Positions 860-62,302 are shown, counted from the first letter of the stretch. The stretch is 64,000 bases of DNA from Candidatus Heimdallarchaeota archaeon (GCA_030603365.1 JAUVXV010000002.1:320001-384000), one strand, 5' to 3'. Translations and numbers: made by a program. The notes: generated by a model from the letters alone, not told the origin.

Positions 860-1966
860 TTGCTATTAAATTTGATGAAGAGAACAAAATTGCTAATTCT
901 GACTAATTTTCTTTGTGTTTTAATACTGCTAAATTCAGCAAGTAATATAACTGGTGTAGTTTTTGTCGAAACTAGTTTAGAATTCTCTGGGAATACTATT
1001 GCCTTCGATATCTATCATGGAGGGTATCATGCTAACGATGTTGATAACCTTGTAGCTAATTTGACAGCTGCTGGAAACATTGTAACATTCATTAATGAAA
1101 CATGGGATTTGCCAGATAATGTAGACGCACTTATTCTCACAAGTGCAGATATAGTTAATTGGACTACTACAGAAATAGCAGATATTGTTAATTGGATGGC
1201 ACTTGGAAATAGACTTCTTTGGGTTTCCGGTGATTCAGACTATTCTGGGTTTTTTGATCCAACACCAATTAATGACATTTTAAGTGCTATTGGAGCTATT
1301 GTAAGATTAGATGGAACATCCATCTCAGACCCAGTGTTCAATGATGGGGCATCATACAGAGTAGCTGCGACAGAATTTGGTGTAGATGATCCTTTCTATG
1401 ATGGTGATCTAGTAGGAAACTTGACTCAAGGAATGGATGCAGGTGCCATTTTTCATGGACCATGCTCAATCATTGCATTTGATGGCTATTACTATAAAGA
1501 TTTGAGATATGGGCATAGCGTTTTTCCTAATAGGGTTTGGACAATCATGAGATATAGTGAAAACGCTATTGCTGATGATACTGATACATCGAATGGAGAT
1601 CTAGATATATATGCTTATGACGTGGATACGGGATTATATCCTGCACTTGTTTATGAAACTCTTACAGATGTAAACAGCCACATCATAGCTTCTGGTGAAG
1701 CTATCTATTCCAACTACAAATATATGTATGATCAAAGGACAGAAAATGGAGTATACAATGAAAATCATCATTTTGGAGAAGTTTTGGTTAACAATATTTT
1801 CAATTATTTCTTAGAAACAAAAGTTATAACAACTCCAACACCAACACCAACACCAACACCAACTGATACTGAAACAACTATAGTTGGATTTGGTATAACT
1901 GCAGCATTAATATCTTTACTAAGCATAGGCATATCAACTGTTTTTATTATTAGAAAGAGATACTAA
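860..1966 (+). CDS. Secreted/cell-surface protein, tandem paralog of previous gene (likely start ATG 875)
   Basis: Signal peptide MKRTKLLIL..., PT linker 1835-1864, VGFG-TM-RKRY tail. Confidence 0.85.
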   Translation: MLLNLMKRTKLLILTNFLCVLILLNSASNITGVVFVETSLEFSGNTIAFDIYHGGYHANDVDNLVANLTAAGNIVTFINETWDLPDNVDALILTSADIVNWTTTEIADIVNWMALGNRLLWVSGDSDYSGFFDPTPINDILSAIGAIVRLDGTSISDPVFNDGASYRVAATEFGVDDPFYDGDLVGNLTQGMDAGAIFHGPCSIIAFDGYYYKDLRYGHSVFPNRVWTIMRYSENAIADDTDTSNGDLDIYAYDVDTGLYPALVYETLTDVNSHIIASGEAIYSNYKYMYDQRTENGVYNENHHFGEVLVNNIFNYFLETKVITTPTPTPTPTPTDTETTIVGFGITAALISLLSIGISTVFIIRKRY

Positions 1967-2024
1967 ATCCTCTTTTTTTTCCTTTTTTCTTCAAGAAACT
2001 TGCATTAAATTTAAAAAACACATA

Positions 2025-3167
2025 ATGTTTGTATATCTAATGATAATTACTTCTCTTATTTATGCTGCTGTTTCCTTGTGTATTATTATTGCTATGATTG
2101 TTTTAGTCTTTAAGAGACAATATGAACTAGCCTCATCTGCTGTTTATTTCATGCTTGGGATTCTCTTTGGTATTGCAGGTTGGATTATCGCTGACATGTT
2201 TCAAATCATTTTTAGCAAACCAGGAAATGAAATCGTTATACTTGTTTTATCTGTTATTGCTACAATATGTAGTATGTTAGCAATGGGGTCTACAGTTTTA
2301 TTTGCGCGAGTCCTAAGTGCTAGAAGAACTCTAAACTCAAAAACAGTTGTCGTTGGAAGCATTCTTTTTGGGGCGACAGTCTTTCTTACACTTACTGCTG
2401 GCTATCCAAATGATGCAGATAAATTAATTAGTTATACAGTAAACTCCTCTGATTTTGCTAATTTAGACTTCATTGTCACTGATATGAGCTTCATCTGGAT
2501 AATTGTCGATGCTGCCATGGTGTTATTTGCAGGTGGTAGTTTGATATGGTATCTTTCGCGTCAATACAGATTTGTTGAACAAAAGCATAGGAAAGTCCTA
2601 GCTTTCATGATAGCTGGTACAGTAATTGCTTTTATTGTAAGTGCAATTTTATATTCGATTTATGCTTTTGCGAAAATTAAGGCTACTCTTCATCTTGAAT
2701 TAGTTTCTGCATCTGTTGGAGCTGCCATGATAGGAATTGGAATGATTGTAGGTGGAAAAAGAGCCCTTTATGGATCTTCAAGAGTTTATTCTGTTCATGT
2801 TTTTTCTAATTCAGGATTAAGTGTGTATGCGGGTCTATTCGAAGGTAAATATGATGTCAACGAACACCTAATTTCTGGAGTTGCGACTGCTATTTCAAGC
2901 TTTGCAGGTCAATTAATAGGTAAAGATGTGGTACCACGTGAGATTGATCTCGGAGATTATTCATTGATGCTCGAAGAAAAGGAAGATTATATTGGTTTCA
3001 TTATCTGTGAGTTTCCATCTGTGATGATCAGACAGGGGCTCAAGAATATCATGAAGAATTTTGATCCTAAAATGAGTATTGAAGAGATATCAGAATTTGT
3101 AGATGACTATCTACCTTATGGAAAACCAGCTGTTATGGATCTGTTTGAGGATTTTGATATACAATAA
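2025..3167 (+). CDS. ~7-TM membrane protein with C-terminal soluble longin/roadblock-like domain
   Basis: Seven hydrophobic segments, then VHVFSNSGLSVY...LISGVATAISSFA...EIDLGDYSLML pattern. Confidence 0.6.
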   Translation: MFVYLMIITSLIYAAVSLCIIIAMIVLVFKRQYELASSAVYFMLGILFGIAGWIIADMFQIIFSKPGNEIVILVLSVIATICSMLAMGSTVLFARVLSARRTLNSKTVVVGSILFGATVFLTLTAGYPNDADKLISYTVNSSDFANLDFIVTDMSFIWIIVDAAMVLFAGGSLIWYLSRQYRFVEQKHRKVLAFMIAGTVIAFIVSAILYSIYAFAKIKATLHLELVSASVGAAMIGIGMIVGGKRALYGSSRVYSVHVFSNSGLSVYAGLFEGKYDVNEHLISGVATAISSFAGQLIGKDVVPREIDLGDYSLMLEEKEDYIGFIICEFPSVMIRQGLKNIMKNFDPKMSIEEISEFVDDYLPYGKPAVMDLFEDFDIQ

Positions 3168-6338: not shown

Positions 6339-7244
6339 GTGTATTCAGAGACATTTGAAACTGAAATAAATAAACTGAAAGCTGATAAAATCAGTGGATC
6401 TGAGGAAATAGTCAGGAAAGCTATTCAAATTATTAAAAAAGAAATTGACAATGACCCAACTAGATATGGTAAGATTATAGATTTAGTTGAAATGCTTCGT
6501 GCAGTTATAATTATTAAGAAAGAAATGTCAGCTTTGAGAAATGTTCTAATTTATTTTATTGATTTCTTCCAAAAAGGAGTAGCAGTTGAAGATTTGGCTG
6601 AAAGGGTCATAGGGAAAATGGATGATCAAAGAAATAATGTCAATGATAAACTGCTTCCAATTATTTCAAAATGTAAAAACATTATGACCTTTTCAAGATC
6701 TAGCACCATTATGTATAGTCTAAGAAAGTTGAGTGAACAAGTGGGGAAAGATAAATTACCTGATTTAACTGTATTTGAATCCAGACCTGCGTTAGAAGGT
6801 AAAAAGCTAGCTTTAGAAGCCACTGAAATGGGTTATAAGGTAAACTACTTAGTAGATGCAGCTATGTCAATGGCAATAATAACGCTCAAACCTGATTTGG
6901 TTTTAATTGGTGCTGACACCATATTTCCTAATGGTAATGTAGTAAATAAAATTGGATGTCAAGCTTTAGCTCTTTTTGCTTATCAAAATAAAATCCCTTT
7001 TTATGTAGTCAGTTCTTCCTTGAAACTTCTACTCAAAGCAATTCCTTTCTCAATACAAAGCTACTCATCAAGCGATATCTGGTCAAAAGATAAACCTGAA
7101 GGTGTAAAAATCTACAATCCTTACTTCGAGATTATTCCTAAAAAATTAATTAGAGGATATGTAACTGAGTTTGGTTTTAGCGAAAACATCCCAGATGTTC
7201 GAATTGAATTGGAAAAAGAGTATATTCACGAAATGTATGACTAG
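6339..7244 (+). CDS. eIF-2B alpha/beta/delta family protein (R15P isomerase/MtnA-like fold)
   Basis: ESRPALEG, LIGAD, NKIG, NPYFE motifs; no catalytic Cys (TFSRSST). Confidence 0.8.
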   Translation: MYSETFETEINKLKADKISGSEEIVRKAIQIIKKEIDNDPTRYGKIIDLVEMLRAVIIIKKEMSALRNVLIYFIDFFQKGVAVEDLAERVIGKMDDQRNNVNDKLLPIISKCKNIMTFSRSSTIMYSLRKLSEQVGKDKLPDLTVFESRPALEGKKLALEATEMGYKVNYLVDAAMSMAIITLKPDLVLIGADTIFPNGNVVNKIGCQALALFAYQNKIPFYVVSSSLKLLLKAIPFSIQSYSSSDIWSKDKPEGVKIYNPYFEIIPKKLIRGYVTEFGFSENIPDVRIELEKEYIHEMYD

Positions 7245-7358
7245 AAAATCTAGATATTAGTTATTCTGAATTTTTTTCACATATGTTTAAATAATGTAAA
7301 ATAGATAAAGGTAATTTGAACTAAGCATGATTTAGTTTATTAAATAGAGGTAATATAT

Positions 7359-8186
7359 ATGAAGAAAAAAGCAGTATTTATTCTATCTTTGTTATGTCTA
7401 TCTATAGTTTCATTTACAATGAGTACTATACAAGCAGATTTTGAAATTAGTTATCAAGGTTTTACTTACTCAGATAACTTATCTCCAGGTGAATCAGTTG
7501 CTTGGGAGATTATGAAACTAGAAAAAGATGACCAATATGAATGGGAAATAAAACCAGGAATAACTATGGAGTTAGGCGACATCCTTAGAGTTAATATCAC
7601 AACAGATCCAGATGCATTAAACCTTACTACATTTGAAGAAATACACACCACAAATGAAGAATGGGCGAACTTCTATAAAAATGACGATTATCTAGGAAAC
7701 GATGCATCTGACCTAAACTGGGGTAGCTCTCTTTATCCTGGAGCTTTACTCTGGGGTCCAATATTCTGGATGTACTTTGTTCCTGTAATTCTGCAAAATG
7801 CCACAGCAAGTGTTGATTTCTTTGATTTTGTAGTACAGCATTTTGGAGTGTATGTATTTGATGATCCAGGTGGATCATATGATATTGAAAAGAAAGGCAA
7901 TTTATTAATAATATCTGCGGAGGTACATGCTGATATATCTGGTGGAATTTTTGGAGGAGATTATAAATTTGATTCATTCGTGGAAATTAGCTACAACGTT
8001 GAATGGGGTACTTTGGATAAACTAGAAATTGATGAAACCGTAGATAGTAGTGCAGGAAAAGAAACATTCAAATTAATACTTTTGAACACTATCAGTACTC
8101 AAAGCATTCCCTTTAATTGGACATATGGTATGATAGCTCTTTTTATTATTGGATTAGCATATATTCTAAGGAAAAAAATACATTAA
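7359..8186 (+). CDS. Secreted protein with C-terminal TM anchor
   Basis: Signal peptide; acidic body; IPF...TM-RKKIH tail. Confidence 0.75.
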   Translation: MKKKAVFILSLLCLSIVSFTMSTIQADFEISYQGFTYSDNLSPGESVAWEIMKLEKDDQYEWEIKPGITMELGDILRVNITTDPDALNLTTFEEIHTTNEEWANFYKNDDYLGNDASDLNWGSSLYPGALLWGPIFWMYFVPVILQNATASVDFFDFVVQHFGVYVFDDPGGSYDIEKKGNLLIISAEVHADISGGIFGGDYKFDSFVEISYNVEWGTLDKLEIDETVDSSAGKETFKLILLNTISTQSIPFNWTYGMIALFIIGLAYILRKKIH

Positions 8187-8333
8187 AAGGAAAAAAAGGT
8201 TAATATTTTCTCCCTTTTTTTTATTATTTTTAAAAAATCTATTGTACCATAGTTGATGGTCTTGTAAAAAAATCTCCAAATTAGAAGAGAAACAGAAAAA
8301 GAGAATATTCAAGAAACTTGTGGGGAAGAGGAA

Positions 8334-9065
8334 TTAACTTCCTTCCCAATCAGTTTTCAACATTTGATCTTTATCCTCTGGGACAACTGGGTCTACATAA
8401 TAAGCGATTTTTCCAGCCCATCTGACCTCTCCTGTTCTATAAATTGGATTGGATCTGATATTTCGTAAGGTTGAAACTGGGATATTGTATTTCATACTTA
8501 ATGTTTTCAATGATGAAAAGGGATTATCAAATTCTCCAAATAACCTACGGATAAGACCTCTTTTGCTTTCTTCGATCATCAAATTTCCATTTTCATCAAC
8601 AGCATAACCAAAGGGTGGTCGAGACATGACTTTCTTATCATTAATTCTTCGTAACATTCCTTTGTATCGCTTTTCACGATATTTTTCCAGTTCCATTTCC
8701 CCGAATAAATCTTTAACTCTTGCAATCGCTTTGTTATCTTCATCATCCAAACAGACAATTGATAGTTCTTTTTTCTTGAGTAGAATTCTAATATAACCTA
8801 AAACGTCAACATCCCTGGATAATCTATCTCTGGATTGACTCCATAATTCATCAAATTCATCATTTTCAGTCATCCTCAATATTTCTAGAAAGCCTTCTCT
8901 ATATTCAGGATCACTGTCTCCAGGGCAATCTTCATCTCGAACAATCTTTACAATTTCTCGATCCCCAGCTTGGTAAATTTTTGCTGAAACATCATCAATT
9001 TGTGTTTCCAATCCTGATTCTTGATCAGCAGTTGAAGTTCGAACATATACAACACAACGAATCAT
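8334..9065 (-). CDS. Serine recombinase (resolvase catalytic domain plus short recombinase domain)
   Basis: YVRTSTADQ catalytic Ser, DRLSRD, PPFGY...NPIY. Confidence 0.9.
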   Translation of the reverse strand: MIRCVVYVRTSTADQESGLETQIDDVSAKIYQAGDREIVKIVRDEDCPGDSDPEYREGFLEILRMTENDEFDELWSQSRDRLSRDVDVLGYIRILLKKKELSIVCLDDEDNKAIARVKDLFGEMELEKYREKRYKGMLRRINDKKVMSRPPFGYAVDENGNLMIEESKRGLIRRLFGEFDNPFSSLKTLSMKYNIPVSTLRNIRSNPIYRTGEVRWAGKIAYYVDPVVPEDKDQMLKTDWEGS

Positions 9066-9069
9066 AATA

Positions 9070-9105
9070 ACCTTGTTAAGAAGGTTTAGACCTTCACTAA
9101 AAGGT
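9070..9105. promoter_or_regulatory. Two tandem ACCTT-N6-AAGGT palindromes (20-bp period) immediately upstream of the recombinase start
   Basis: ACCTTgttaagAAGGTttagACCTTcactaaAAGGT. Confidence 0.6.
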
Positions 9106-9131
9106 ATGTACTACTGGACAACATATGAAAC

Positions 9132-9581
9132 TTATCTTTCGTCGAAAACCACTTGTTCAACAAGCCTTTTATCTTGTTTTTTAGTTAGATAGCGATAAAT
9201 GAAATACTCCACCTTCTCAATTGATTCATCATAATTAAGAGGTAGTTCTCGTCCACTTTCCTTAAGATGGATTAATCTTTGTCTTAATAGACTCAAAGTA
9301 AGAGCAACAGTTCGATTTCTTTCATAAAGCTCATTCGCTTTTAATCGAATTAGAGCATACTCTTGAAATAAACTAGAATACTCTCTACTTAATTCTTGGA
9401 ATATTTTTTCATCTTCAGCTCTTTTATTAGAAAGATCATTCATGTCCCAATCAGTTAGTTCGTCAGGTATAATCTCCAAATAATAAAGATAATAAGCTAA
9501 ATCACTTGCAAGAATATTTTCATCCTCACATGGAATTTTGTCCTTGAATTTAATATTGAACCTTGTAGTATTTATTTTCAT
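9132..9581 (-). CDS. Hypothetical helical protein
   Basis: 149-aa ORF; ATGA overlap with upstream gene. Confidence 0.7.
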   Translation of the reverse strand: MKINTTRFNIKFKDKIPCEDENILASDLAYYLYYLEIIPDELTDWDMNDLSNKRAEDEKIFQELSREYSSLFQEYALIRLKANELYERNRTVALTLSLLRQRLIHLKESGRELPLNYDESIEKVEYFIYRYLTKKQDKRLVEQVVFDER

Positions 9582-9955
9582 TGAATAGTCTCCCCACCTA
9601 AATCTTTGACAATTTGCTCAATTTTTATCACAGTGTTATAATCTTGATTATATTCCTCTAGAGCATCTCTAAGTATCTCAACATGGTCATTAATTTTTTG
9701 TAAATCATCTATTCGTTCCTTTAATCTAAATGCAAATTCTCCATATTTCATTACTCCTAGAAAAAAATCCCTGAAACTTTTTTCTTGTGAGTGAGCATAG
9801 TTTTTTTTCCAAGCATGGAAAATAATACTCATCACTTTTGGATACTTTGCTAAAATTTGTTTTTCTTGAATTTTGTTCTTCTGAGCATAATTCTTTATTC
9901 TTCTGCTCTGAGTAATATTAAAGGTAAGTTGTTTAATGGTTTTCATACCATTCAA
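9578..9955 (-). CDS. Hypothetical protein
   Basis: 125-aa ORF in operon-like arrangement. Confidence 0.65.
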   Translation of the reverse strand: MNGMKTIKQLTFNITQSRRIKNYAQKNKIQEKQILAKYPKVMSIIFHAWKKNYAHSQEKSFRDFFLGVMKYGEFAFRLKERIDDLQKINDHVEILRDALEEYNQDYNTVIKIEQIVKDLGGETIQ

Positions 9956-10006
9956 GTAAAAGTCTGATGCAAAATAGATAAAGATTTAGTTAGTTTGAGT
10001 GGTCTA

Positions 10007-54180: not shown

Positions 54181-55386
54181 TTGTTATCTCTCCTAATGTC
54201 TTTTAGGAAAAGCTTTGGCTTAGATTTTCATTTCCCTGAAACTGAAATTTACCTAGATTCCGCTACTTCGGGAAAGATGCCTGTTTCTTCAGTTGAAGTT
54301 ATGAGTAACTATTATACTGAATTAGGAGGAGGAATTAATAGAGGCACTCATAAAAAAGCTGTAAATGCTAATAGAAAACTAGAACAATCACGTTCTACAG
54401 TAGCAAACATTTTCTCAGTAAATTCCAACAATGTTTCTTTTCTTCCCTCTCGAGAAACTGCTTTGATGAACTTTCTTCTATCTGGCATTTTTTCAAAAGA
54501 TAATGAAATAATAGTTAGTTCTTTAGATGATCATTCCATACTTGCACCAGTTTTAAAACTAAGAACAGTATACGATGTGCGTTTAAACTTTCTAAACCTA
54601 CAAGACGAATCAAATCTAGTTGAAGTCATAGAAGAGAGAATTACAGCAGAAACTAAAGCGATAGTTCTTTCAGTTATGACCCTGGGAATGGGAATTAAAC
54701 GAAATTGGAGAAAGATTACAAAAATCGCTCAGGATGCAGAAATACCTTTAGTTCTAGATATAAGCAATGCTATAGGTCATATGGAATTTAATTTCAAGGA
54801 TATAACTCCAGATATCGTAGTTTCTTCTGGAAATATCGGTGCGTTAGGTCCCCAAGGTACTGCTTTTCAAATTGTAACAGAGGACATGATGAAGAAATTT
54901 GATCCCATCTTAGTTGGAGGAGGAACAGTTATGTCTCTAGATAGATCTACCTATAAATTAGCTTCTGGCATTAACAAATATGAACCAGGGACTCTCAACA
55001 TAAGTGGAATTGCAGGATTAGCTAATAGTTTACAATCTTTATCTGAGATAGGTTTTGAAAGGATTACTAAACACGAAATCGAGCTACGAGCAATGCTTGA
55101 AGATGGGTTAAGAAAGACTAACAAATTGAACCTCATCGAACATCAAGGGTTAAATTATGGCCCAATACTCTCGTTTATGAGTGATGAGATAGATTCTCAT
55201 GACATTGCTATCATTCTCGAAGATTTGGGAGATATCTATGTAAGAAGTGGGGCATTATGTTCACATTTGTTCATGGAAGAACTACAAAAAGAATCTCTTG
55301 TTCAGGTTTCTACACATCTTTATAACACTAAAGAGGATATAGAAATTTTCTTAGAAACCTTAAACTCCATAATGTCTGAAATTTAG
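54181..55386 (+). CDS. SufS/Csd-like class V aminotransferase fold lacking the PLP lysine (paralog 1; likely start ATG 54196)
   Basis: YLDSATS, NRGTH, SGNIGALGP (canonical SGHK), YEPGT, RSGALCSH. Confidence 0.85.
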   Translation: MLSLLMSFRKSFGLDFHFPETEIYLDSATSGKMPVSSVEVMSNYYTELGGGINRGTHKKAVNANRKLEQSRSTVANIFSVNSNNVSFLPSRETALMNFLLSGIFSKDNEIIVSSLDDHSILAPVLKLRTVYDVRLNFLNLQDESNLVEVIEERITAETKAIVLSVMTLGMGIKRNWRKITKIAQDAEIPLVLDISNAIGHMEFNFKDITPDIVVSSGNIGALGPQGTAFQIVTEDMMKKFDPILVGGGTVMSLDRSTYKLASGINKYEPGTLNISGIAGLANSLQSLSEIGFERITKHEIELRAMLEDGLRKTNKLNLIEHQGLNYGPILSFMSDEIDSHDIAIILEDLGDIYVRSGALCSHLFMEELQKESLVQVSTHLYNTKEDIEIFLETLNSIMSEI

Positions 55387-55503
55387 AATTAGTGGGTATC
55401 CATTTATTAGTTACTTTTACTTTCTTTCATTGTTTGAATCACATTCAAGAATATCTTTTGCTAGTTTAAATACCAAACTGCGTATAATAATTCCAGAGAG
55501 TAG

Positions 55504-57711
55504 TTGGTGGAATTTATCTCAACTGAAACTATCACTCGTACATTTCATTTAAATTCAATTGAAACAGAAGAGATATTTTGTTATAGAGTATTTGGAGATT
55601 TTAAATCTGCAGTAAATACTCTAATAAAAGGAGGAATAAACCTCAACAACGAAATTTTCAGAGAAGAGAGTTTAGTTTCAGTAAAGCGGTTCTATTCACT
55701 ATTAAGAAAAAATTCATGTATAAGTGCTAAATTGAGCAAGCTTGAAATTAAAGAACGTTTATTGAGATGTGCTGCTCAGTATGCATATTTTTCTATTCGT
55801 AACCTAAAACAAACAAGAAATTTGTGCAGTGAGATTGCACAAGTAATGAGTGAAGATTCTTCTTGGAATAAATTTCGCAGAGATTCTTGGTTCTTATGGG
55901 ATTTATCTAAAAAATCAAAAAAAAGAAGAGATAATTTGAATGTAAAATTATTAAATCAGATTAAGAACAAACATAATTCTATATATCCTGAACAAAACAG
56001 AATGTGCAATGCACACTTGATAAATAATTATTTCAGACACATTCGAAAAATTATTCTTAGTAATCTTCAAAGGAAGGATATCAAAATCAATATTGATTCA
56101 GAATATTGTATTAAAACAATTCGAGAACATTACAGTTCTGAATACATAGATACTCTGATTAGTAAGTTTAAAACTCAAATTTCAACTTTATTAACTAGAC
56201 AATTCAAGAAATACAAAAAGAATGAAATTTCTGAAAAATCAGATGGAAACAAACAATCAAACGTTCCAGTTTTAAAAACTATTTACTCAATATGTAAAAC
56301 TAAAAAGATTCATAATGTTGAAATTGAAGAATGGAAACTAAAAAAAGAGTTATGGTTGATTAGATATATCGACGAAATTAGAGATTTCTTTAAATCTGAA
56401 TGTGTTAATCAAGAAATTAACAGAGGGATAAAAAGATTACAGGAAAAACCAACAGTGTATTTCCTAGCAATGTTTTTAGAGAAAAAGATTTTCAAATTGA
56501 GAAGAAAAATTCAAGGAGAACCAGTTAGAGATTTCTATTTCTTTCTATCACAAATAATAGATTATCATCTCACTCATCTTATACTCGAAACACAACAGAT
56601 GGTTATTTTACCTAAAATACGCATGATTCTCCTTGATTTCATTCTAAAGCCACTATCTTATCTCAAAATGCCAATCTTTACAAAATCAGTAATCCCTTTA
56701 GGAATCGATGACAATCAAGTTTATACATTGGAAGAGTTACAAAGTGAAGTAAAAATCACTTTGTCCTTTTATCCAAATCAGAAAAAACATTTCAAATTAT
56801 CATCACCAGAAAGATATTTCGAATTAACTATGAATAATGCAAAACCTGCACGAGGAATTCTTTCAGCTCATGGTGGCAAGCTTCAACTTGCTATTCCGTT
56901 TACTAGACGTTTACCAGAGTTATCAAAGATAAAACCTCTTGAAAAACAAAGAATTCTAAATTGTGATCTTGGATTGAAATCTTTTGCTGTTTTGAGTATT
57001 ACAGAAAATGGTTTTGAAACACATAGAAAATTCTTGGATCAAAAACAACTAACGGGTTCAAAAAATTCATGGTTCCTAGCAAAATCATTTAGAAATAAAA
57101 ACACAAAAACACGAGAAAAACCAACTATAAATTATAAATTCAATCTTATGAAACTCCGTAAAAAAATAAATAATTTACAATCAGAACTGAAAATGATGAA
57201 AGAAGAGACGAAAAGAAGAAGATCTAAGAACAAGAATTATCCTAAGTATAAAAATACCAAACTGTACTGGTATAAAAAAAGAGAATTGAAGTCTTACTGG
57301 AACAGAATTAGGAATATTCACAAAGAATTGATACATCAAATTTCTACAAGAATAGTTGAATATGCCAACTATCATCAAGTAGATACTATACGCTTTGAAG
57401 ATCTTCGTTGGACTCAACATTCAGCTAAACATGAAGTTGGTTATTTTCTCTCTTTCTGGCAAGTACATTGGTTTTTCAGCCAGATAATAGAATACACATC
57501 ACAAATTGCTAGAAGATATATGATTAGGTCTGTTCTAACTAATCCATATAAAAGCTCACAAATTTGCTCTACTTGTGAAAAGGAAGGAAAAAGACAAAGA
57601 AAGATATTCATGTGCTCAAATGAACTGTGTGGACTAATACTTGACAGTGATTTAAATGCTGCTCGAAACTTAGGTAAAAAATCACGCAAATGTTATCCTA
57701 TTCGACTATAA
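55504..57711 (+). CDS. Large (735 aa) TnpB/Cas12f-like RuvC nuclease
   Basis: RuvC-I NCDLGLK, RuvC-II RFEDL, SSQICSTC...FMC...C zinc ribbon, RuvC-III DSDLNAARNL. Confidence 0.88.
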   Translation: MVEFISTETITRTFHLNSIETEEIFCYRVFGDFKSAVNTLIKGGINLNNEIFREESLVSVKRFYSLLRKNSCISAKLSKLEIKERLLRCAAQYAYFSIRNLKQTRNLCSEIAQVMSEDSSWNKFRRDSWFLWDLSKKSKKRRDNLNVKLLNQIKNKHNSIYPEQNRMCNAHLINNYFRHIRKIILSNLQRKDIKINIDSEYCIKTIREHYSSEYIDTLISKFKTQISTLLTRQFKKYKKNEISEKSDGNKQSNVPVLKTIYSICKTKKIHNVEIEEWKLKKELWLIRYIDEIRDFFKSECVNQEINRGIKRLQEKPTVYFLAMFLEKKIFKLRRKIQGEPVRDFYFFLSQIIDYHLTHLILETQQMVILPKIRMILLDFILKPLSYLKMPIFTKSVIPLGIDDNQVYTLEELQSEVKITLSFYPNQKKHFKLSSPERYFELTMNNAKPARGILSAHGGKLQLAIPFTRRLPELSKIKPLEKQRILNCDLGLKSFAVLSITENGFETHRKFLDQKQLTGSKNSWFLAKSFRNKNTKTREKPTINYKFNLMKLRKKINNLQSELKMMKEETKRRRSKNKNYPKYKNTKLYWYKKRELKSYWNRIRNIHKELIHQISTRIVEYANYHQVDTIRFEDLRWTQHSAKHEVGYFLSFWQVHWFFSQIIEYTSQIARRYMIRSVLTNPYKSSQICSTCEKEGKRQRKIFMCSNELCGLILDSDLNAARNLGKKSRKCYPIRL

Positions 57712-57860
57712 GTTAAATAGGAGGGGTTTCCGTTTAATCCCAAATTAAGTTGCTCAGAAGAGCAACTTTGAAAATTCGGTCACTTAAGCTTCTTTCTGGC
57801 ATAGCTTCAAGCTTCACCAAATGCCTTTCGATCATTCCGTATATATTGGTTGTACAATTG
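57712..57860 (+). ncRNA. Candidate omega/reRNA region downstream of the TnpB-like gene (boundaries uncertain)
   Basis: Perfect hairpin AAGTTGCTC-agaa-GAGCAACTT (57747-57768); GGCAT/ATGCC stem (57798-57825); position typical of TnpB guide RNAs. Confidence 0.45.
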
Positions 57861-57947
57861 TATATACAAAAGTTTCTATATCTGAAGAATGCAATAACAT
57901 TGATATTCTCAGGTTATTTTTTTCCAAAGATTAAGAAAAGATTATTC

Positions 57948-58184
57948 TTATTGTATATATTCTGTTTCTTCTTTTTCTAGAAGTAGATAAATTCTATCAA
58001 AGTTTATTTGTTCTGCAGCTGCACTTCTTTCTGTATTTTTTGTTATCTTCCAATCCTTGATTGTATATCCTTCTGGAAGTTTATCAAATGCATCTTTTAT
58101 AGCCTTATCAAGTATTTCAATTCCTTCTGAAGTAAATATCGCTGTATTTACATCTAAATATTTCAGTTCATATCTCGATCCCAT
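57948..58184 (-). CDS. Small hypothetical protein
   Basis: 78 aa, ATG start, upstream TATA-like tttaaa. Confidence 0.6.
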   Translation of the reverse strand: MGSRYELKYLDVNTAIFTSEGIEILDKAIKDAFDKLPEGYTIKDWKITKNTERSAAAEQINFDRIYLLLEKEETEYIQ

Positions 58185-58415
58185 TCAAATCAATGTAAAA
58201 CAACATAATTTCTTTAAATACTTTTTGAACAACCATTTCTTCCCAAAAAATTTCTATTGTTTGTATACTTTCTATCATTTATCTTTTTTTATTTCTATGA
58301 TTTCCTTTCTTAATTCAAGTACTTCTTCATATATTGACAACTTCATTAGCTCCACAACTTACTCTACAAAGAAAACCCTTCGTAGGTGGATATTTAAGAA
58401 TTGTTGACAAAGAAG

Positions 58416-58452
58416 TGTAATACGTCCTGTAATACACGTTCTATGCATTACA
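58416..58452. promoter_or_regulatory. TGTAATAC direct repeat plus inverted copy (GCATTACA) upstream of TATA-like box
   Basis: 58416-58423, 58428-58435, 58445-58452. Confidence 0.4.
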
Positions 58453-58489
58453 AAGGTATTTAAGATAAAAAAACTAATTATTATTTGAC

Positions 58490-58744
58490 ATGGCTAAAAA
58501 ATACAGAATTAGTGAAAAAATAAGAAAAAAGATGAGAAAGGACAAATCCTCACTCTTTCCCTTACCTTTGAAAAAGAAGGTCGAAGTAGCTTTGTGTTAC
58601 AGATGTAATAGAAACAAATCTACTAAATTGTGCCTTAATTGTAGAAAACCTATTTGTAATCCTTGTGAAACAAAAAATCCTAAAGGTTATTGCGTTCCTT
58701 GTAGAAATGAAAAATTCGGTTTTGTATCATTTACTTTTGAATAA
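58490..58744 (+). CDS. Basic B-box-like zinc-finger protein
   Basis: CYRC...CLNCRKPICNPC...CVPC. Confidence 0.7.
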   Translation: MAKKYRISEKIRKKMRKDKSSLFPLPLKKKVEVALCYRCNRNKSTKLCLNCRKPICNPCETKNPKGYCVPCRNEKFGFVSFTFE

Positions 58745-58797
58745 AGATTTGATGAATTGTTCCGCGTAGAGATAATTCAAATAGTTCTATATTATGT

Positions 58798-59007
58798 TTA
58801 TATTTTCTTATTTCTTGATCTACGCTCTATGATGATAAGTAACAGACCTATTGCAAGAAATCCAATTGCTGCAGGTTGAATCCACATTGCCATCGATCCT
58901 CCTGAAAAATCTTTTACAAACCAAATTATAGTAAAAACTATACCGATGATTAAAACTATCGGACCAATCAAAATTCTAAAAGTTATTTTTTCTAATAAAC
59001 TCATCAC
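58798..59007 (-). CDS. Small two-TM membrane protein
   Basis: Two hydrophobic helices; upstream ggaggt RBS. Confidence 0.7.
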   Translation of the reverse strand: MMSLLEKITFRILIGPIVLIIGIVFTIIWFVKDFSGGSMAMWIQPAAIGFLAIGLLLIIIERRSRNKKI

Positions 59008-59185
59008 GATTTACCTCCCTCCATTCTGTGAGAGAGTACAGGATTTTTCTCACATTTTTAAAAAGTAACCGATTATCTGTAGTAAAACTATTTTCTTTTT
59101 TTACCATTTTACGACCAAACCGAAATCTAAACAATTCAGATAAAAACTAAGAATTAACTAACAATCAAAGAAGGATGAGATCTTA

Positions 59186-60475
59186 ATGAATAAAAACATA
59201 GTATATGGAAGCACATTGATAGTTGTTTTTTTAAGTGCAGGAATACTTACTGGTTATTTTATTCCGCAAAATAATCAGGCACAATATGATACACTACTAT
59301 CAGAATTTCAAGATTTGAATGAGGTATATAATGCTCTTTTAGAGGATTACAATACTCTACTAGGGAATTATACTGAAATAAAAGAGAAATGCGATATAAT
59401 AACTGGAGAATACGATTCTTTGAATGAAACCTACTACAACCTGTTAGAAGAGTATACTTTGTTGAATGAAACCTACAATGAATTGTTGGTAGATTATAAT
59501 ACCTTTGTAGAATCTTTCAACACATTGCAGATAGCTTATGATCAACTAAATGATTTATATTCACAACTTCTGATTGATTATGCTGTTTTTGAAAATGAAT
59601 ATAATGCTTTACTCCAGAATTATGATTTGTTGACAGCATGGATCAGAGGAATGACTTTACCTGCTCAGTACATGGTTTTTGCTGAGGCTGTTAGAAGATA
59701 CTACTTTGAAGATTTTTATGTTAAAGATACTTGGGCTACGGGAAATGAAACAGGATATTTTGCAGAATATGCACTATTCAGTCGTGATATAGTTTTGCAC
59801 GATTCTGATTTGTCATTGAAAGGAGAATTATTTGCTGAAGTATCAAATGCTCTTTCTGATTGTTTGATATATGGGAATGAAACTGAAGGCTTAGCTTGGA
59901 TGTGTATGATTGGCGTGTTTTATCCTTGGCTTCCTAATTGGAGTGGATATTATTCGTCTGGAAATGAACTAACTGATATTGATACAATAGTTCAGTGGTG
60001 CATTGATGAGATCGACTACGAATATGATACAACTATAACATATGGACAAGAACTTTATTTTTGGGATTATGTCAAGTTTCCAGTCGAAACAGCTTTCAGA
60101 ACAATGGGGGATTGTGAAGACCAAGCTCTATTCTGTGCAGCTTATCTAGAATCTTGTGGATTTCAAACTGCACTAGCATTATTTCATGATGCTGAAAATC
60201 CTATTAGTCCTGATGGTTTTTATCATGCAACTTTGTTAGTACATATAGAAGACCTAGCAAACTTTCAGTTTTGGCATCCATTTTGTCCTTTGTGGAGTCT
60301 AAGTGACATAGATCCATATGAAGGATATACTTGGGTATGGTTAGATTCTACTTGGGATGTCTCGTTTCCGTCAAAACCTGGATGGATGCAATACTACCTT
60401 GATAATGGAATAAATGATGACGATCTTACAATAGTACTATGTGACTTAAATGGAGCTACTAGCTATGCTCCTTAG
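59186..60475 (+). CDS. Membrane-anchored coiled-coil stalk plus transglutaminase-like (Cys-His-Asp) domain
   Basis: N-terminal TM, YxxLxxx heptads, GDCEDQA, FYHA, WLDST. Confidence 0.8.
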   Translation: MNKNIVYGSTLIVVFLSAGILTGYFIPQNNQAQYDTLLSEFQDLNEVYNALLEDYNTLLGNYTEIKEKCDIITGEYDSLNETYYNLLEEYTLLNETYNELLVDYNTFVESFNTLQIAYDQLNDLYSQLLIDYAVFENEYNALLQNYDLLTAWIRGMTLPAQYMVFAEAVRRYYFEDFYVKDTWATGNETGYFAEYALFSRDIVLHDSDLSLKGELFAEVSNALSDCLIYGNETEGLAWMCMIGVFYPWLPNWSGYYSSGNELTDIDTIVQWCIDEIDYEYDTTITYGQELYFWDYVKFPVETAFRTMGDCEDQALFCAAYLESCGFQTALALFHDAENPISPDGFYHATLLVHIEDLANFQFWHPFCPLWSLSDIDPYEGYTWVWLDSTWDVSFPSKPGWMQYYLDNGINDDDLTIVLCDLNGATSYAP

Positions 60476-60641
60476 CAATTTTTTTTCCTCTTAATTAATT
60501 ATACTTATACGTAAGCAATCTGCTTACAGAGATTTAAACCTCGAGCAGTAAGAAGTTTGTTTGTGATCTTACATTAGTCGTGGAGAAATGGCTTTAAACT
60601 TATGTTTAATGATTCGTATGGCTTTTTTGTTTCTTATATTA

Positions 60642-60783
60642 TGTCTCACCCCTCACTGTTTTTCAACTGTTTAACCCTGCTTTTTCTGGGAAGATTTTCC
60701 TGCTGATCCAGACCACAGAAAGTTCTTGTGCAGAGGAAAGGAAAGGAAGGGTTGAGACGAGAGAAGAGAGAAGGGGTGATACA
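60642..60783 (+). ncRNA. ~140-nt long-stem structured element (ncRNA or MITE-like)
   Basis: TGTCTCACCCCT/AGGGGTGATACA terminal stem (11/12), inner stems with G-U pairs on + strand, two apical hairpins. Confidence 0.5.
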
Positions 60784-60971
60784 CACTAGTATAGATCTTA
60801 CAGAAATTTCTTTCGTTTCCGAAGATAGATATTTATTAAAGAGTAACCATAAAAAAAATGGAAGTGCCTTCCGATCATTCCCAACTAGTATATTGTGAGT
60901 AAATATAGAAACTTTTTGATTTTAGAACAAGTAAAGTTTTAATACAGAATAAATAATAGAAAAACGAAATT

Positions 60972-62165
60972 ATGTCGTCTATAACACGATTTGGAATCGA
61001 GTTTAACATAAGATCTAACCAAATATATCTAGATTCTGCAACCATTGGTAAAATGCCTATTTCCTCAATTAAAGCCATTTCTGATTATTATCTAGATGGG
61101 GGAAGTGTACCAGTTAGGGGAATGCATAATGAAATTTCTCAAAGTAATAATTTTCTAGAAGAAAAAAGGGGAGAGCTAGCAAATCTATTTCAAGTAGAAC
61201 CTGTTCAAATTTCGTTTTTTCCTTCAAGAGAATCCAACTTAACAAGTATCCTTTATTCAATAGAAGATATCAAAGATAGGAGGATTATAACTAGCGTTCT
61301 TGAAGAACACTCTGTAATTGGTCCTGCTATCAGAGCTAATAATGATCATGGAACAGAAATAGATTATTTGAATGTAAAAAACGAAACAAATCTGTTAGAG
61401 AGCATTAATCAGAAGGTAAATTCCGAACAAGATATTCTGCTTTTATCTTCTTTAACTTCAACCAACGGAGTTAAGAGAGATTGGTCTGAGATAGCTAAAG
61501 TCTGCAAAGACACTGGTGCAACTTTTCTTCTTGACATAAGTTATTCTTTAGGTCATGAAGAGCTAAATTTCAAAGAAATTTCTCCTGATGTTGTCTTCGC
61601 ATCAGGTTGCATTGGTGCATTAGGACCCCCTGGAACAGCTTTTCAAATCACTAAAAAAGAGTTTTATGATAAGATGGATCCATTAATTGTGGGCGGAAAT
61701 TCAATAATTACTTTGGAAGAAGAGTATTATTTACTTACATCTTCAGGTTCTAAATTCGAGACAGGACTCGTTAATTGTGCAAATATTAGTTCGATGGTAA
61801 ACAGTTTAAGGATATTATCAAACGTTGGCTTTTCTAAAATTCAGGATCATGAAAGTAAATTAAATAATTTCCTAAGAAAAGAGTTAGAAAATTTACCATA
61901 TATTGAAATCAACAGTGTAGAAAATGTGGAATATGGTCCTATCATCTCCTTTGGCAGTAATAAAATTGAAGCTCATGATCTGGCTATAGTTCTAGAAGAC
62001 TTGAAGGATATCCAAATAAGAAGTGGAGCTCTCTGTTCTCATCTTTTCATGTATGAATTACCATTCAATGATATTTTGAGGGTATCTACGCACCTTTACA
62101 ATACAGAAGAAGAGGTGAAAATATTCATTGAGACACTTTCCTCAGTCTTAAGTGAGATGTCTTAG
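60972..62165 (+). CDS. SufS/Csd-like protein lacking the PLP lysine (paralog 2)
   Basis: YLDSATIGKMP, SGCIGALGP, FETG, RSGALCSH; colinear with 54181..55386. Confidence 0.85.
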   Translation: MSSITRFGIEFNIRSNQIYLDSATIGKMPISSIKAISDYYLDGGSVPVRGMHNEISQSNNFLEEKRGELANLFQVEPVQISFFPSRESNLTSILYSIEDIKDRRIITSVLEEHSVIGPAIRANNDHGTEIDYLNVKNETNLLESINQKVNSEQDILLLSSLTSTNGVKRDWSEIAKVCKDTGATFLLDISYSLGHEELNFKEISPDVVFASGCIGALGPPGTAFQITKKEFYDKMDPLIVGGNSIITLEEEYYLLTSSGSKFETGLVNCANISSMVNSLRILSNVGFSKIQDHESKLNNFLRKELENLPYIEINSVENVEYGPIISFGSNKIEAHDLAIVLEDLKDIQIRSGALCSHLFMYELPFNDILRVSTHLYNTEEEVKIFIETLSSVLSEMS

Positions 62166-62228: not shown

Positions 62229-62302
62229 GCACGCATAGTCTAGTGGTAGGACTGAGGCCTCCCACGCCTCCAACCCGAGTTCGAATCCCGGTGCGTGCAC
62301 CA
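62229..62302 (+). tRNA. tRNA-Gly(CCC), intronless, with encoded 3'-CCA
   Basis: Acceptor GCACGCA/TGCGTGC, anticodon arm GAGGC-ctCCCac-GCCTC, TTCGAAT T-loop, A-CCA end. Confidence 0.95.

What the first reader, a model, noticed from the sequence alone, without database searches (positions are those of the whole stretch)
57822..60916. 17-bp motif after the TnpB-like gene recurs 3 kb away upstream of the second SufS-like gene
Seen: TGCCTTTCGATCATTCC (57822-57838) matches TGCCTTCCGATCATTCC (60865-60881) at 16/17. Each copy is followed within ~30 bp by the same 14-mer in opposite orientation: AAAAGTTTCTATAT (57868-57881) and its reverse complement (60903-60916). Copy 1 lies where a TnpB guide or scaffold end is expected; copy 2 is ~90 bp upstream of the SufS-like start. 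Inference, three alternatives: (a) guide and cis target, i.e. RNA-guided binding or cutting at a neighbouring promoter; (b) att-like direct repeats of a 3-kb insert carrying four accessory genes; (c) the conserved end of two related guide RNAs with different spacers.
Basis: partly seen in the sequence, partly recalled or inferred. Interest (0 to 1): 0.72.

Follow-up and report, generated by a model that had tools for sequence, protein, structure and literature searches.

The report
Duplicated end of a small-RNA gene
The repeated 17-base motif is not a nuclease guide and its target: it is the start of a conserved rRNA-methylation guide RNA gene (box C/D type) on the opposite strand, present as one whole copy and one 20-base stump on either side of 3 kb of DNA that only this Heimdall-group archaeon has inserted there.

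Summary
The 17-mer pair (16/17) and the inverted 14-mer are at the stated coordinates, and the 17-mer occurs nowhere else in the 3.65-Mb genome.

The guide/cis-target reading fails. In relatives the two SufS-like genes are adjacent (spacer 160-240 nt in the 12 loci measured), and the spacer holds one conserved ~61-nt element whose end is the 17-mer. It is single-copy in 27 of 30 genomes of the family, most without this nuclease.

The element reads as a box C/D-like small RNA on the minus strand (window 57840-57776):
- a covarying terminal stem whose G-U pairs form only on that strand;
- a K-turn core;
- two invariant arms complementary to two 23S rRNA sites 16 nt apart.

The 17-mer is its C box plus the start of one guide. 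The 14-mer overlaps the promoter-like TATA stretch upstream.

In this genome the spacer was hit twice:
- a TnpB-like element (55401-57780) sits at the RNA's 3' end, and its predicted guide starts at 57781, 41 nt before the 17-mer;
- about 3 kb of mosaic accessory DNA lies between the full RNA gene and a 20-nt stump (60862-60881).

Alternative (b) is closest, but no integrase was found. This is ordinary genome plasticity, with an unannotated guide RNA as a by-product.

The parts
54181..55386 (+). SufS-like gene 1 (class-V aminotransferase fold)
   Evidence: Pfam Aminotran_5 E 3e-63. Orthologues lie next to the small-RNA element in all family genomes examined.
55401..57780 (+). TnpB-like insertion element. 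It has a ~100-nt left end with a promoter-like TTTAAATA, a 735-aa ORF at 55504-57711, and a ~70-nt conserved RNA scaffold at 57712-57780 ending in CGGT.
   Evidence: Pfam Cas12f1-like TNB domain and NCBIfam guided_TnpB below cut-off. It is single-copy in the genome. Homologues in other Heimdall MAGs sit in unrelated neighbourhoods. In 7 loci the scaffold is conserved up to GGT and the sequence then diverges. The left junction AGTGGGT|ATCC and right junction CGGT|CAC match the uninterrupted GGT|CAC of relatives.
57781..57800 (+). Predicted guide of the TnpB-like element (first 16-20 nt after the scaffold)
   Evidence: Inferred from position. It equals the native sequence that follows GGT in relatives without the element. 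It is unique in the genome at up to 2 mismatches over 20 nt. It is antisense to the D guide and D box of the small RNA.
57776..57840 (-). Complete box C/D-like small-RNA gene ('E'): terminal stem, C box AUGAUCG, guide AAGGCAUUUG, central hairpin, guide AAGAAGCUUA, D box GUGA
   Evidence: Alignment of 26 genomes. Pair 6-73 is paired in 26/26 with 4 pair types, including 9 G-U that form only on the minus strand. C-G changes to A-U at the K-turn pair. The arms are complementary to 23S rRNA. No Rfam hit.
57822..57838 (+). 17-mer copy 1: reverse complement of the RNA's first bases (GG of the stem, C box, first 7 nt of the D' guide)
57841..57881 (-). Promoter-like stretch of the full RNA gene (TATA-like GTATATAC at 57860-57867). 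The 14-mer at 57868-57881 lies just upstream of it on the minus strand.
   Evidence: All 26 relatives have a T-rich plus TATA-like box about 20-34 nt before the RNA's 5' end. This version matches that of congener G023. Promoter function is inferred.
57882..60861 (.). Lineage-specific ~3-kb insert. It carries a 78-aa ORF (57948-58184, -), a zinc-ribbon 84-aa ORF (58490-58744, +), a 69-aa membrane ORF (58798-59007, -), a transglutaminase-like 429-aa ORF (59186-60475, +) and a 386-nt non-coding tail. The left edge is ambiguous between 57839 and about 57883.
   Evidence: It is absent between the SufS genes of the 12 relatives whose loci were searched. No mobility gene was found. The 78-aa module is 81-89% identical in DNA to G013 contig C153, and the 429-aa gene 79% to G013 contig C2. 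The tail has no relative in the family.
60862..60881 (-). Truncated copy of the small-RNA gene: only its first ~20 nt. On the minus strand it is followed by a possible hairpin (GGAAG/CUUCC) and a run of 8 T.
   Evidence: Nothing upstream of 60862 resembles the rest of the element (sequence).
60882..60916 (-). Promoter-like stretch in front of the truncated copy (TAAATATA at 60900-60907). The 14-mer at 60903-60916 overlaps it.
   Evidence: This version matches those of congeners G020 and G016.
60937..60944 (+). TATA-like box TTTTAATA, 27 nt before the SufS-like 2 start codon
   Evidence: It is conserved in the relatives' spacers (TTTTAATA or TTTTAAAA). Function is inferred.
60972..62165 (+). 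SufS-like gene 2
   Evidence: Pfam Aminotran_5 E 8e-59. It lies directly downstream of SufS-like 1 and the element in relatives.

Best explanation
Both 17-mers descend from one ancestral sequence: the 5' end of a ~65-nt box C/D-like small-RNA gene on the minus strand, in the spacer between two tandem SufS-like genes. The RNA most likely assembles with L7Ae, Nop5 and fibrillarin. Its two conserved arms would guide 2'-O-methylation at two sites 16 nt apart in the helix 69-71 region of 23S rRNA. In this genome the spacer was disrupted twice, and I infer two independent events. First, a TnpB-like insertion element landed just 3' of a GGT at the RNA gene's 3' edge. Its own terminal CGGT now supplies the last base of the D box and the closing stem, and its guide is the first bases of the flanking RNA gene, as expected for an ordinary element of this type. 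Second, about 3 kb of mosaic accessory DNA came to lie between the intact RNA gene with one version of its promoter and a stump. The stump consists of a second promoter version plus the first 20 nt of the RNA. The 17-mer repeat is thus the overlap between a whole and a truncated copy. The 14-mer is part of the quasi-palindromic T-rich/TATA promoter core, which exists in either orientation among relatives. The step I consider most likely for the 3-kb gain is inferred, not shown. It is recombination with DNA from a related archaeon, anchored on the only stretch that is nearly identical between species (the RNA gene), with an illegitimate second junction about 22 nt into the other RNA copy. No RNA-guided step is needed.
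For: Shown:
- The motif is unique to these two places in the genome.
- A 19-mer containing it occurs exactly once per genome in 27 of 30 family genomes and in none of 16 genomes of the order's other families. G000 is the only genome with two real copies, because G014's two are overlapping contig ends.
- In 12 congeners the order o151 - SufS1 - element - SufS2 is kept (LarA follows wherever the fetched stretch reaches it), with a 160-240-nt spacer and no nuclease or accessory genes.
- Terminal stem and K-turn: columns 5-8 pair with 71-74, and pair 6-73 is paired in 26/26 (GU 9, GC 8, AU 7, CG 2). GA/GA is invariant, and C-G changes to A-U in G041/G042. The covariation score is 0.217 against 0.083 for shuffles (0 of 500 reach it), and slid controls are lower.
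- The two invariant arms match 23S rRNA at G000 C14:142-149 and 158-167, each ending next to a D-type box. 15 of 3000 shuffles give such a pair.
- The rRNA target is identical over 70 nt in 10 family genomes and is present once in 15 of 31 assemblies.
- Fibrillarin and Nop5 genes are present.
- The scaffold end at 57780 is defined by 7 loci, and there is one scaffold per genome.
- An environmental contig joins 57806 to 60865 through 16 nt typical of an uninterrupted element (table 5c).
- SufS1 and SufS2 trees agree, placing G000 as sister to G016, G020 and G023.
Against: - No RNA data: no RNA run holds the locus, so transcription, strand and ends of the small RNA are inferred only.
- The C box (AUGAUCG) and D box (GUGA) depart from the RUGAUGA/CUGA consensus. 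No convincing C'/D' pair was found; a covarying hairpin takes its place.
- A 10-nt complementary run to rRNA alone is not rare (387 of 3000 shuffles). The support comes from the pair of arms and their position next to the boxes.
- The 18/20 identity of the stump to the full copy, next to poorly alignable flanks, could also mean that the stump is under selection, which this account does not explain.
- An exact inverted 14-mer is more than a TATA-rich composition predicts. A small ancient inversion of the promoter core is assumed, not demonstrated.
- The mechanism of the 3-kb gain cannot be decided from one genome.
Confidence: 0.8

Rival explanations
1. Site-specific integration. The 3 kb is the decayed remnant of an integrative element that used the conserved 5' end of the small-RNA gene as its attachment site, as many archaeal elements use tRNA genes. 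The 17-20-nt repeats would be attL and attR cores.
For: Direct repeats of 17-20 nt bracket DNA that is absent from relatives. In another genus, G042 diverges from G041 exactly at the RNA's 5' end and carries an island there with PIN, AAA_15 and paralogues of the same transglutaminase-like gene. The sequence right after copy 1 differs from that after copy 2, as arms of attL and attR would.
Against: No integrase, recombinase or transposase was found in the 3 kb with Pfam, PHROGs or NCBIfam. The block is not found as a unit elsewhere, and its pieces lie on different contigs in G013. The 43 nt after copy 1 match the native spacer of congener G023, which has no insert. No second stump was found in G042, though its contig ends inside the island.
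Confidence: 0.12
2. RNA-guided cis action. The nuclease's RNA extends through the 17-mer and directs binding or cutting at the second copy, upstream of SufS-like 2.
For: The nuclease keeps the residues D488, E632 and D716, which are invariant among its three full-length homologues. Transcription from the nuclease gene would run through copy 1 on the plus strand. Copy 2 lies about 90 nt before the SufS-like 2 start.
Against: The scaffold ends at 57780 and the 17-mer starts 41 nt later, beyond any known 16-20-nt guide of this nuclease family (the guide length is from established knowledge of TnpB). The motif is conserved in 27 of 30 family genomes, whereas relatives of the nuclease are sparse in those searched and lie at other loci in the five examined. 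Copy 2 is preceded by GAAG, not by the GGT that precedes the native target. The conservation is fully explained by the small-RNA gene.
Confidence: 0.03
3. Local tandem duplication. A short segment (small-RNA 5' end plus promoter, ~75 nt or more) was duplicated in place. The copies then diverged, and accessory DNA accumulated between them in several steps.
For: The two copies share the 17-20-mer and a loosely alignable stretch after it (GTATAT..TTG..TG..GTA). The insert is a mosaic, which is compatible with stepwise gain. SufS trees show no sign of foreign origin of either flank.
Against: Near-identity in the 20-mer contrasts with poor similarity right after it. Each copy's flank resembles a different relative's spacer version: G023 for copy 1, and G020 and G016 for copy 2. 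That fits two alleles better than divergence in place. One junction inside the RNA gene is still needed.
Confidence: 0.05

Closest known systems
Archaeal box C/D small RNAs (guides for fibrillarin-dependent 2'-O-methylation of rRNA and tRNA)
   Same: Size of ~65 nt. A short closing stem. A K-turn with a 3-nt bulge, tandem G-A pairs and a U-U pair. Two ~10-nt arms complementary to neighbouring rRNA sites, each ending next to a D-type box. Fibrillarin and Nop5 are present in the genome.
   Different: The C box is AUGAUCG and the D box GUGA, with the usual G-C pair swapped to C-G (A-U in one genus). There is no clear C'/D' pair; a covarying hairpin takes its place. It matches no Rfam family. Expression and methylation are untested.
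TnpB elements of the IS200/IS605 type (non-autonomous, transposase-less copies with a 3' guide-RNA scaffold)
   Same: The RuvC-type residues and zinc-ribbon/TNB domain are present. A conserved RNA-like scaffold overlaps the element's right end. The guide position is occupied by the flanking target DNA. Insertion is directly 3' of a short motif (GGT) without target duplication.
   Different: The protein is 735 aa, with about 480 aa before the first RuvC motif. It scores below NCBIfam's TnpB cut-off. It is single-copy with no transposase gene nearby. The family is rare: 3 proteins of similar length in the 5.8-billion-sequence search.
Integration of archaeal mobile elements into tRNA genes, leaving a full gene and a partial direct repeat
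   Same: A whole small-RNA gene lies on one side and a short terminal fragment of it on the other, bracketing lineage-specific DNA.
   Different: The target is a methylation guide RNA gene, not a tRNA gene. The repeat is the 5' end of the RNA. No integrase was found, and the insert is a mosaic.
Homology-facilitated illegitimate recombination (foreign DNA gained through one homologous anchor and one illegitimate junction; described for naturally transformable bacteria, cited from my own knowledge)
   Same: One short, highly conserved anchor (the RNA gene) lies next to otherwise diverged DNA. The second junction shows no homology. A short duplication of recipient sequence results.
   Different: It has never been shown in Asgard archaea as far as I know, and it is not testable here.

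Membership tests
Box C/D small RNA | C box (RUGAUGA) near the 5' end and D box (CUGA) near the 3' end | tested here: inconclusive
   AUGAUCG and GUGA are found. The UGA cores are invariant in 26 genomes. The consensus G-C position is C-G in 24 and A-U in 2.
Box C/D small RNA | Boxes brought together by a closing stem so as to form a K-turn | tested here: met
   The stem (columns 5-8 with 71-74) is 85.6% paired, with changes on both sides in 3 of 4 pairs. Pair 6-73 has 4 pair types and is paired in 26/26. A 3-nt bulge is followed by GA opposite GA.
Box C/D small RNA | 10-12-nt guide directly upstream of D or D' that is complementary to rRNA or tRNA | tested here: met
   AAGGCAUUUG pairs with 23S CAAAUGCCUU, and AAGAAGCUUA pairs with UGAGCUUCUU (one G-U). 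The sites are 16 nt apart. Such a pair appears in 15 of 3000 shuffles. The target is invariant in 10 genomes.
Box C/D small RNA | Internal C' and D' boxes | tested here: not met
   Only GUGA/UGAU-like and AUG-containing stretches are seen. The pairing register differs between clades, and a hairpin with compensatory changes (TTGATTT/AAATCAA versus TTGATCT/AGATCAA; GCTCC/GGAGC in G044) takes their place.
Box C/D small RNA | Partner proteins encoded in the genome | tested here: met
   Fibrillarin (305 bits) and Nop5 (226 bits) lie side by side on contig C1. L7Ae was not searched.
Box C/D small RNA | Stable transcript of the predicted strand and size; methylation at the predicted nucleotides | not testable with these tools
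   No RNA run holds the locus.
TnpB-type RNA-guided nuclease element | RuvC-like catalytic residues and zinc-ribbon TNB domain | tested here: met
   Pfam PF07282 E 5.6e-12. D488, E632 and D716 are invariant in the 3-sequence alignment. NCBIfam guided_TnpB scores 68 bits, below its cut-off of 100.
TnpB-type RNA-guided nuclease element | Conserved RNA scaffold at the 3' end, followed by variable flank (guide) | tested here: met
   About 70 nt are conserved after the stop codon in 7 loci, with compensatory changes (CCATG/CATGG versus CCGTA/TACGG). The sequence diverges directly after GGT.
TnpB guide with cis target (reading a) | Motif lies within the guide, directly after the scaffold, and the second copy carries the target-adjacent motif | tested here: not met
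   The 17-mer starts 41 nt after the scaffold end. Copy 2 is preceded by GAAG, whereas the native target is preceded by GGT.
Integrase-type attachment sites | Direct repeats flanking DNA that is absent from an empty site in relatives | tested here: met
Integrase-type attachment sites | Integrase or recombinase in the insert; the same unit found elsewhere | tested here: not met
   No such domain was found. The pieces are scattered in G013, and the tail has no relative in the family.

The most novel reading that the evidence does not exclude
The small-RNA gene is a recurrent landing and recombination site for accessory DNA in this archaeal family. Its near-invariant ~60 nt would serve as the homology anchor (or attachment site) through which diverged species exchange islands. 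The TnpB-like element would have homed to its 3' edge in a way that rebuilds the RNA's D box and closing stem, so that host and element both stay functional. The retained stump with its own promoter, hairpin and T-run might then be a selected by-product rather than debris.
Probability: 0.2. Interest if true: 0.55.

Novelty: new member of a known kind. Interest (0 to 1): 0.35.

Why it matters
It removes a tempting but wrong reading: an RNA-guided nuclease regulating a neighbouring promoter. A short motif next to a TnpB-type gene can simply be host sequence, here a guide-RNA gene on the other strand. It also yields a concrete, testable annotation. This is an unannotated box C/D-like RNA, conserved across one Heimdallarchaeial family, predicted to direct two methylations in the helix 69-71 region of 23S rRNA. 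The region forms a ribosomal inter-subunit contact (from established knowledge). Methylation guides of Asgard archaea bear on the origin of eukaryotic snoRNAs. The locus further gives a clean before/after example: relatives provide the empty site of a rare, oversized TnpB-like element with defined ends, a defined insertion motif and a defined guide.

Tried and rejected
- Common repeat: rejected, because there are only two copies in the genome.
- Second guide RNA near copy 2: rejected, because only one scaffold exists in the genome.
- Multi-copy nuclease element whose copies would define the ends: the gene is single-copy. The ends were defined from other genomes instead.
- Rfam: no family matches the element or the scaffold. 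Only a tRNA-Gly reaches a gathering score in the window, and the hits at E up to 10 in 57650-58000 are noise.
- RNAalifold on either strand gave only weak consensus structures. The structure was then tested by explicit pair counts.
- Single-sequence folding of the RNA is not better than shuffles (z -0.9).
- rRNA targets in 16S and the 5' 2 kb of 23S: none of 8 nt or more. The target turned up only in the 3' part of 23S, on another contig.
- Expression: no RNA holder is listed for this locus.
- Laying four cold-seep DNA runs gave only short contigs of relatives. None spans the locus, and one bridges an uninterrupted element.
- Recombination signal between the SufS1 and SufS2 flanks: none, because the trees agree.
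- A 14-nt match to the predicted guide at contig C13:187613 lies inside a coding frame and is preceded by TTT, so it was taken as chance.
- Literature: one paper on TnpB diversity mentions Asgard Cas1-linked TnpB groups with a hypervariable region and a GTTCACTCA motif (PMC10691335). That motif is not present after the scaffold in the homologous loci here. No paper was found on box C/D RNAs of Heimdallarchaeota.
Full report
**1. Observation**

The sequence is as described.
- TGCCTTTCGATCATTCC lies at 57822-57838 and TGCCTTCCGATCATTCC at 60865-60881.
- AAAAGTTTCTATAT lies at 57868-57881 and its exact reverse complement at 60903-60916.
- Neither motif has any further match in the window, even with mismatches, and shuffles rarely give two.
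- In the whole assembly (3.65 Mb, 17 contigs, 33% G+C; the window is contig C15:320001-384000) the 17-mer with up to two mismatches occurs only at these two places.

The match is real.

**2. Gene content**

Pfam gives the following:
- a SufS-like gene at 54181-55386;
- a 735-aa TnpB/Cas12f-like protein at 55504-57711;
- small ORFs at 57948-58184 (-), 58490-58744 (+) and 58798-59007 (-);
- a transglutaminase-like membrane and coiled-coil protein at 59186-60475;
- a second SufS-like gene at 60972-62165;
- tRNA-Gly(CCC) at 62229-62302;
- a LarA-like gene on the minus strand.

The two SufS-like genes are paralogues (44% identity). Record titles of homologous loci name Heimdallarchaeota MAGs, among them AB_125. 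The DNA runs that share words with the locus are cold-seep metagenomes.

**3. The decisive comparison**

In the congeners the two SufS-like genes are adjacent.
- A search of 24 congeners with SufS-like 2 found both paralogues side by side.
- Twelve loci were fetched. All keep the order o151 - SufS1 - SufS2, followed by LarA wherever the fetched stretch reaches it, and none holds the nuclease or any of the four accessory genes.
- Their spacer is 160-240 nt. It carries one conserved element of about 61 nt that starts GGTCAC and ends with the 17-mer, followed by an AT-rich stretch and the SufS2 start.

The same holds across the family.
- A 19-mer covering the motif occurs exactly once per genome in 27 of 30 family genomes.
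- It occurs in none of the 16 genomes of the other families of the order.
- It always lies just downstream of SufS1, including in genera that have only one SufS gene.
- G014's two hits are overlapping contig ends, so G000 is the only genome with two real copies.

In G000 the ancestral spacer is therefore split into these parts:
- SufS1 stop;
- nuclease element;
- complete element (57778-57838);
- about 43 nt of spacer;
- about 3 kb;
- the last 20 nt of the element (60862-60881);
- about 90 nt of spacer;
- SufS2.

One contig of a cold-seep run joins 57806 to 60865 through 16 nt typical of an uninterrupted element of a relative (table 5c).

**4. What the element is**

An alignment of 26 genomes shows two invariant single-stranded stretches around a hairpin with compensatory changes:
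- TTGATTT/AAATCAA versus TTGATCT/AGATCAA;
- AGC/GCT versus GCTCC/GGAGC in G044.

Read on the minus strand, the ends form a closing stem next to a K-turn core:
- a 3-nt bulge;
- invariant GA opposite GA;
- U opposite U;
- a C-G pair that is A-U in G041 and G042.

Pair counts support this structure.
- Pair 6-73 is paired in 26 of 26 sequences with four pair types. Nine of them are G-U, which would be A-C mismatches on the plus strand. This fixes the strand.
- The covariation score is 0.217 against 0.083 for shuffles (0 of 500 reach it).
- All slid controls are lower.

The boxes read AUGAUCG and GUGA.

The two invariant stretches sit where guides sit in box C/D RNAs, and both pair with 23S rRNA.
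- AAGGCAUUUG, one base after the C box, pairs with CAAAUGCCUU.
- AAGAAGCUUA, ending one base before the D box, pairs with UGAGCUUCUU (one G-U).
- The two targets lie 16 nt apart at G000 C14:140-167, in the 3' part of the 23S gene.
- By my recollection of the E. coli sequence this is the 3' strand of helix 69 and the start of helix 71. That assignment was not tested.

A single 10-nt run is not rare (387 of 3000 shuffles), but such a pair within 40 nt is (15 of 3000). The target is identical over 70 nt in ten family genomes. It occurs once in 15 of 31 assemblies, with no control hits. Fibrillarin and Nop5 genes are present. Rfam has no match.

I conclude, at about 80%, that this is a box C/D-like methylation guide RNA gene at 57840-57776 on the minus strand. 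It lacks canonical C'/D' boxes.

The 17-mer is the reverse complement of the RNA's first bases: two stem bases, the C box and seven bases of the first guide. That explains its conservation without any reference to the nuclease.

**5. The 14-mer**

Upstream of the RNA's 5' end, all 26 relatives carry a T-rich stretch followed by a TATA-like box about 20-34 nt away. This is the geometry of an archaeal promoter; the function is inferred. In both G000 copies the 14-mer overlaps this stretch.
- The version next to copy 1 (GAAACTTTTG-TATATACA on the minus strand) is that of congener G023, and it resembles those of three other genera.
- The version next to copy 2 (AAAAAGTTTC-TATATTTA) is that of G020 and G016.

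The inverted 14-mer thus reflects two inherited versions of a quasi-palindromic promoter core. It is not a feature created together with the 17-mer repeat. The SufS2 promoter is more likely the conserved TTTTAATA at 60937-60944.

**6. The nuclease element**

The protein is single-copy and rare. Only three proteins of similar length appear in the 5.8-billion-sequence search. Further full or partial copies occur in other Heimdall and Asgard MAGs, always in other neighbourhoods.

About 70 nt after the stop codon are conserved in seven loci, with compensatory changes. All loci diverge directly after GGT, so the right end is at 57780. Upstream, only a promoter-like TTTAAATA about 35 nt before the start is shared.

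The junctions point to insertion directly 3' of GGT:
- AGTGGGT|ATCC on the left and CGGT|CAC on the right in G000;
- GGT|CAC in the relatives.

Inserted there, the element is 55401-57780. The predicted guide (57781-57800) is the native flank, as in ordinary TnpB elements, where the guide matches the empty site. The guide principle is established knowledge of IS200/IS605 TnpB.

The insertion point lies inside the 3' closing stem of the small RNA. The element's terminal CGGT now provides the last D-box base and the stem bases. Whether this is selected or accidental is open.

**7. The 3 kb**

No integrase, transposase or phage gene was detected. The block is a mosaic.
- The 78-aa ORF and its upstream region are 81-89% identical in DNA to G013 contig C153.
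- The 429-aa gene is 79% identical to G013 contig C2.
- Paralogues of the 429-aa gene occur in 7 of the 47 genomes searched in the order, G000 included.
- The 386-nt tail has no relative in the family.

The right junction is at 60861/60862, about 22 nt into a copy of the RNA gene. The left junction lies between 57839 (end of the repeat) and about 57883 (end of similarity to G023's native spacer). The SufS1 and SufS2 trees agree with each other, placing G000 as sister to G016, G020 and G023, so neither flank looks foreign.

The two copies are nearly identical in the 20-mer but carry different spacer versions right next to it. For that reason I favour recombination between two alleles of the locus, anchored on the only nearly invariant DNA there (the RNA gene), with one illegitimate junction. 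I favour this over a fresh target duplication or a classical integrase event. This step is inference.

The spacer was hit independently in other genomes:
- a 1971-bp insert between SufS1 and the RNA gene in G046, relative to G045;
- an island starting exactly at the RNA's 5' end in G042, relative to G041.

**8. Verdict**

Readings (a) and (c) are rejected. Reading (b) is right as anatomy but not shown as mechanism. The find is ordinary genome plasticity around a conserved small-RNA gene. Its useful by-products are a new box C/D-like guide RNA of a Heimdallarchaeial family with predicted rRNA targets, and a precisely delimited copy of a rare, oversized TnpB-like element with its empty site in relatives.

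Noticed in passing
window 55504-57711 (+): The TnpB-like protein is 735 aa, with about 480 aa before the first RuvC motif and no family match for that part. Only three proteins of similar length turned up in the 5.8-billion-sequence search, all from Heimdall-type MAGs. It is one copy per genome and in a different neighbourhood each time.
   Followed up: partly
window 60630-60800 (+): A long imperfect hairpin (pyrimidine-rich arm against purine-rich arm) lies in the non-coding tail of the insert. MFE is -52.7 kcal/mol with z -2.7 on the plus strand and z -0.8 on the minus strand. No similar DNA exists in 30 family genomes.
   Followed up: partly
window 60862-60850 read on the minus strand: Right after the 20-nt RNA stump, the minus strand reads GGAAGGCACUUCC (a possible 5-bp hairpin created by the A-to-G difference from copy 1) followed by eight U, a terminator-like arrangement.
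   Followed up: no
window 57967-58426: The 78-aa ORF, a possible 23-codon ORF upstream of it (58347-58277, minus strand) and their promoter region are 81-89% identical in DNA to G013 contig C153. That is far above the identity of neighbouring housekeeping genes between these species and suggests recent exchange.
   Followed up: partly
L050 (G046:C1:34500-40600) 1030-3000: A 1971-bp insert lies between SufS1 and the small-RNA gene, relative to G045. It carries three minus-strand ORFs (165, 125 and 203 aa) of unknown family.
   Followed up: partly
L043 (G042:C12:17000-34151) 6463-17152: An island starts at the small RNA's 5' end. It holds two paralogues of the transglutaminase-like gene, a NosD/beta-helix protein, and a PIN plus AAA_15 (OLD/AbiEii-like ATPase) pair. 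It looks like a defence or accessory island.
   Followed up: partly
G000 contigs C8:1-2016, C8:10098-11577 and C14:1-1665: The 23S rRNA gene is split over two contig ends, and its 3' part shows gaps relative to G045's gene (possible insertions or introns). The 16S gene lies about 8 kb from the 23S 5' part.
   Followed up: no
G000 contig C13:187613-187626: There is a 14-nt exact match to the start of the predicted nuclease guide, inside a coding frame and preceded by TTT instead of GGT. It is probably chance.
   Followed up: partly
L019 (G001:C76) and L018 (G003:C51): Decayed fragments of the same TnpB-like gene (N-terminal or C-terminal pieces with stop codons) occur here. The G001 fragment lies directly downstream of a tRNA-like gene, and the G003 remnant still has a recognisable scaffold.
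   Followed up: no
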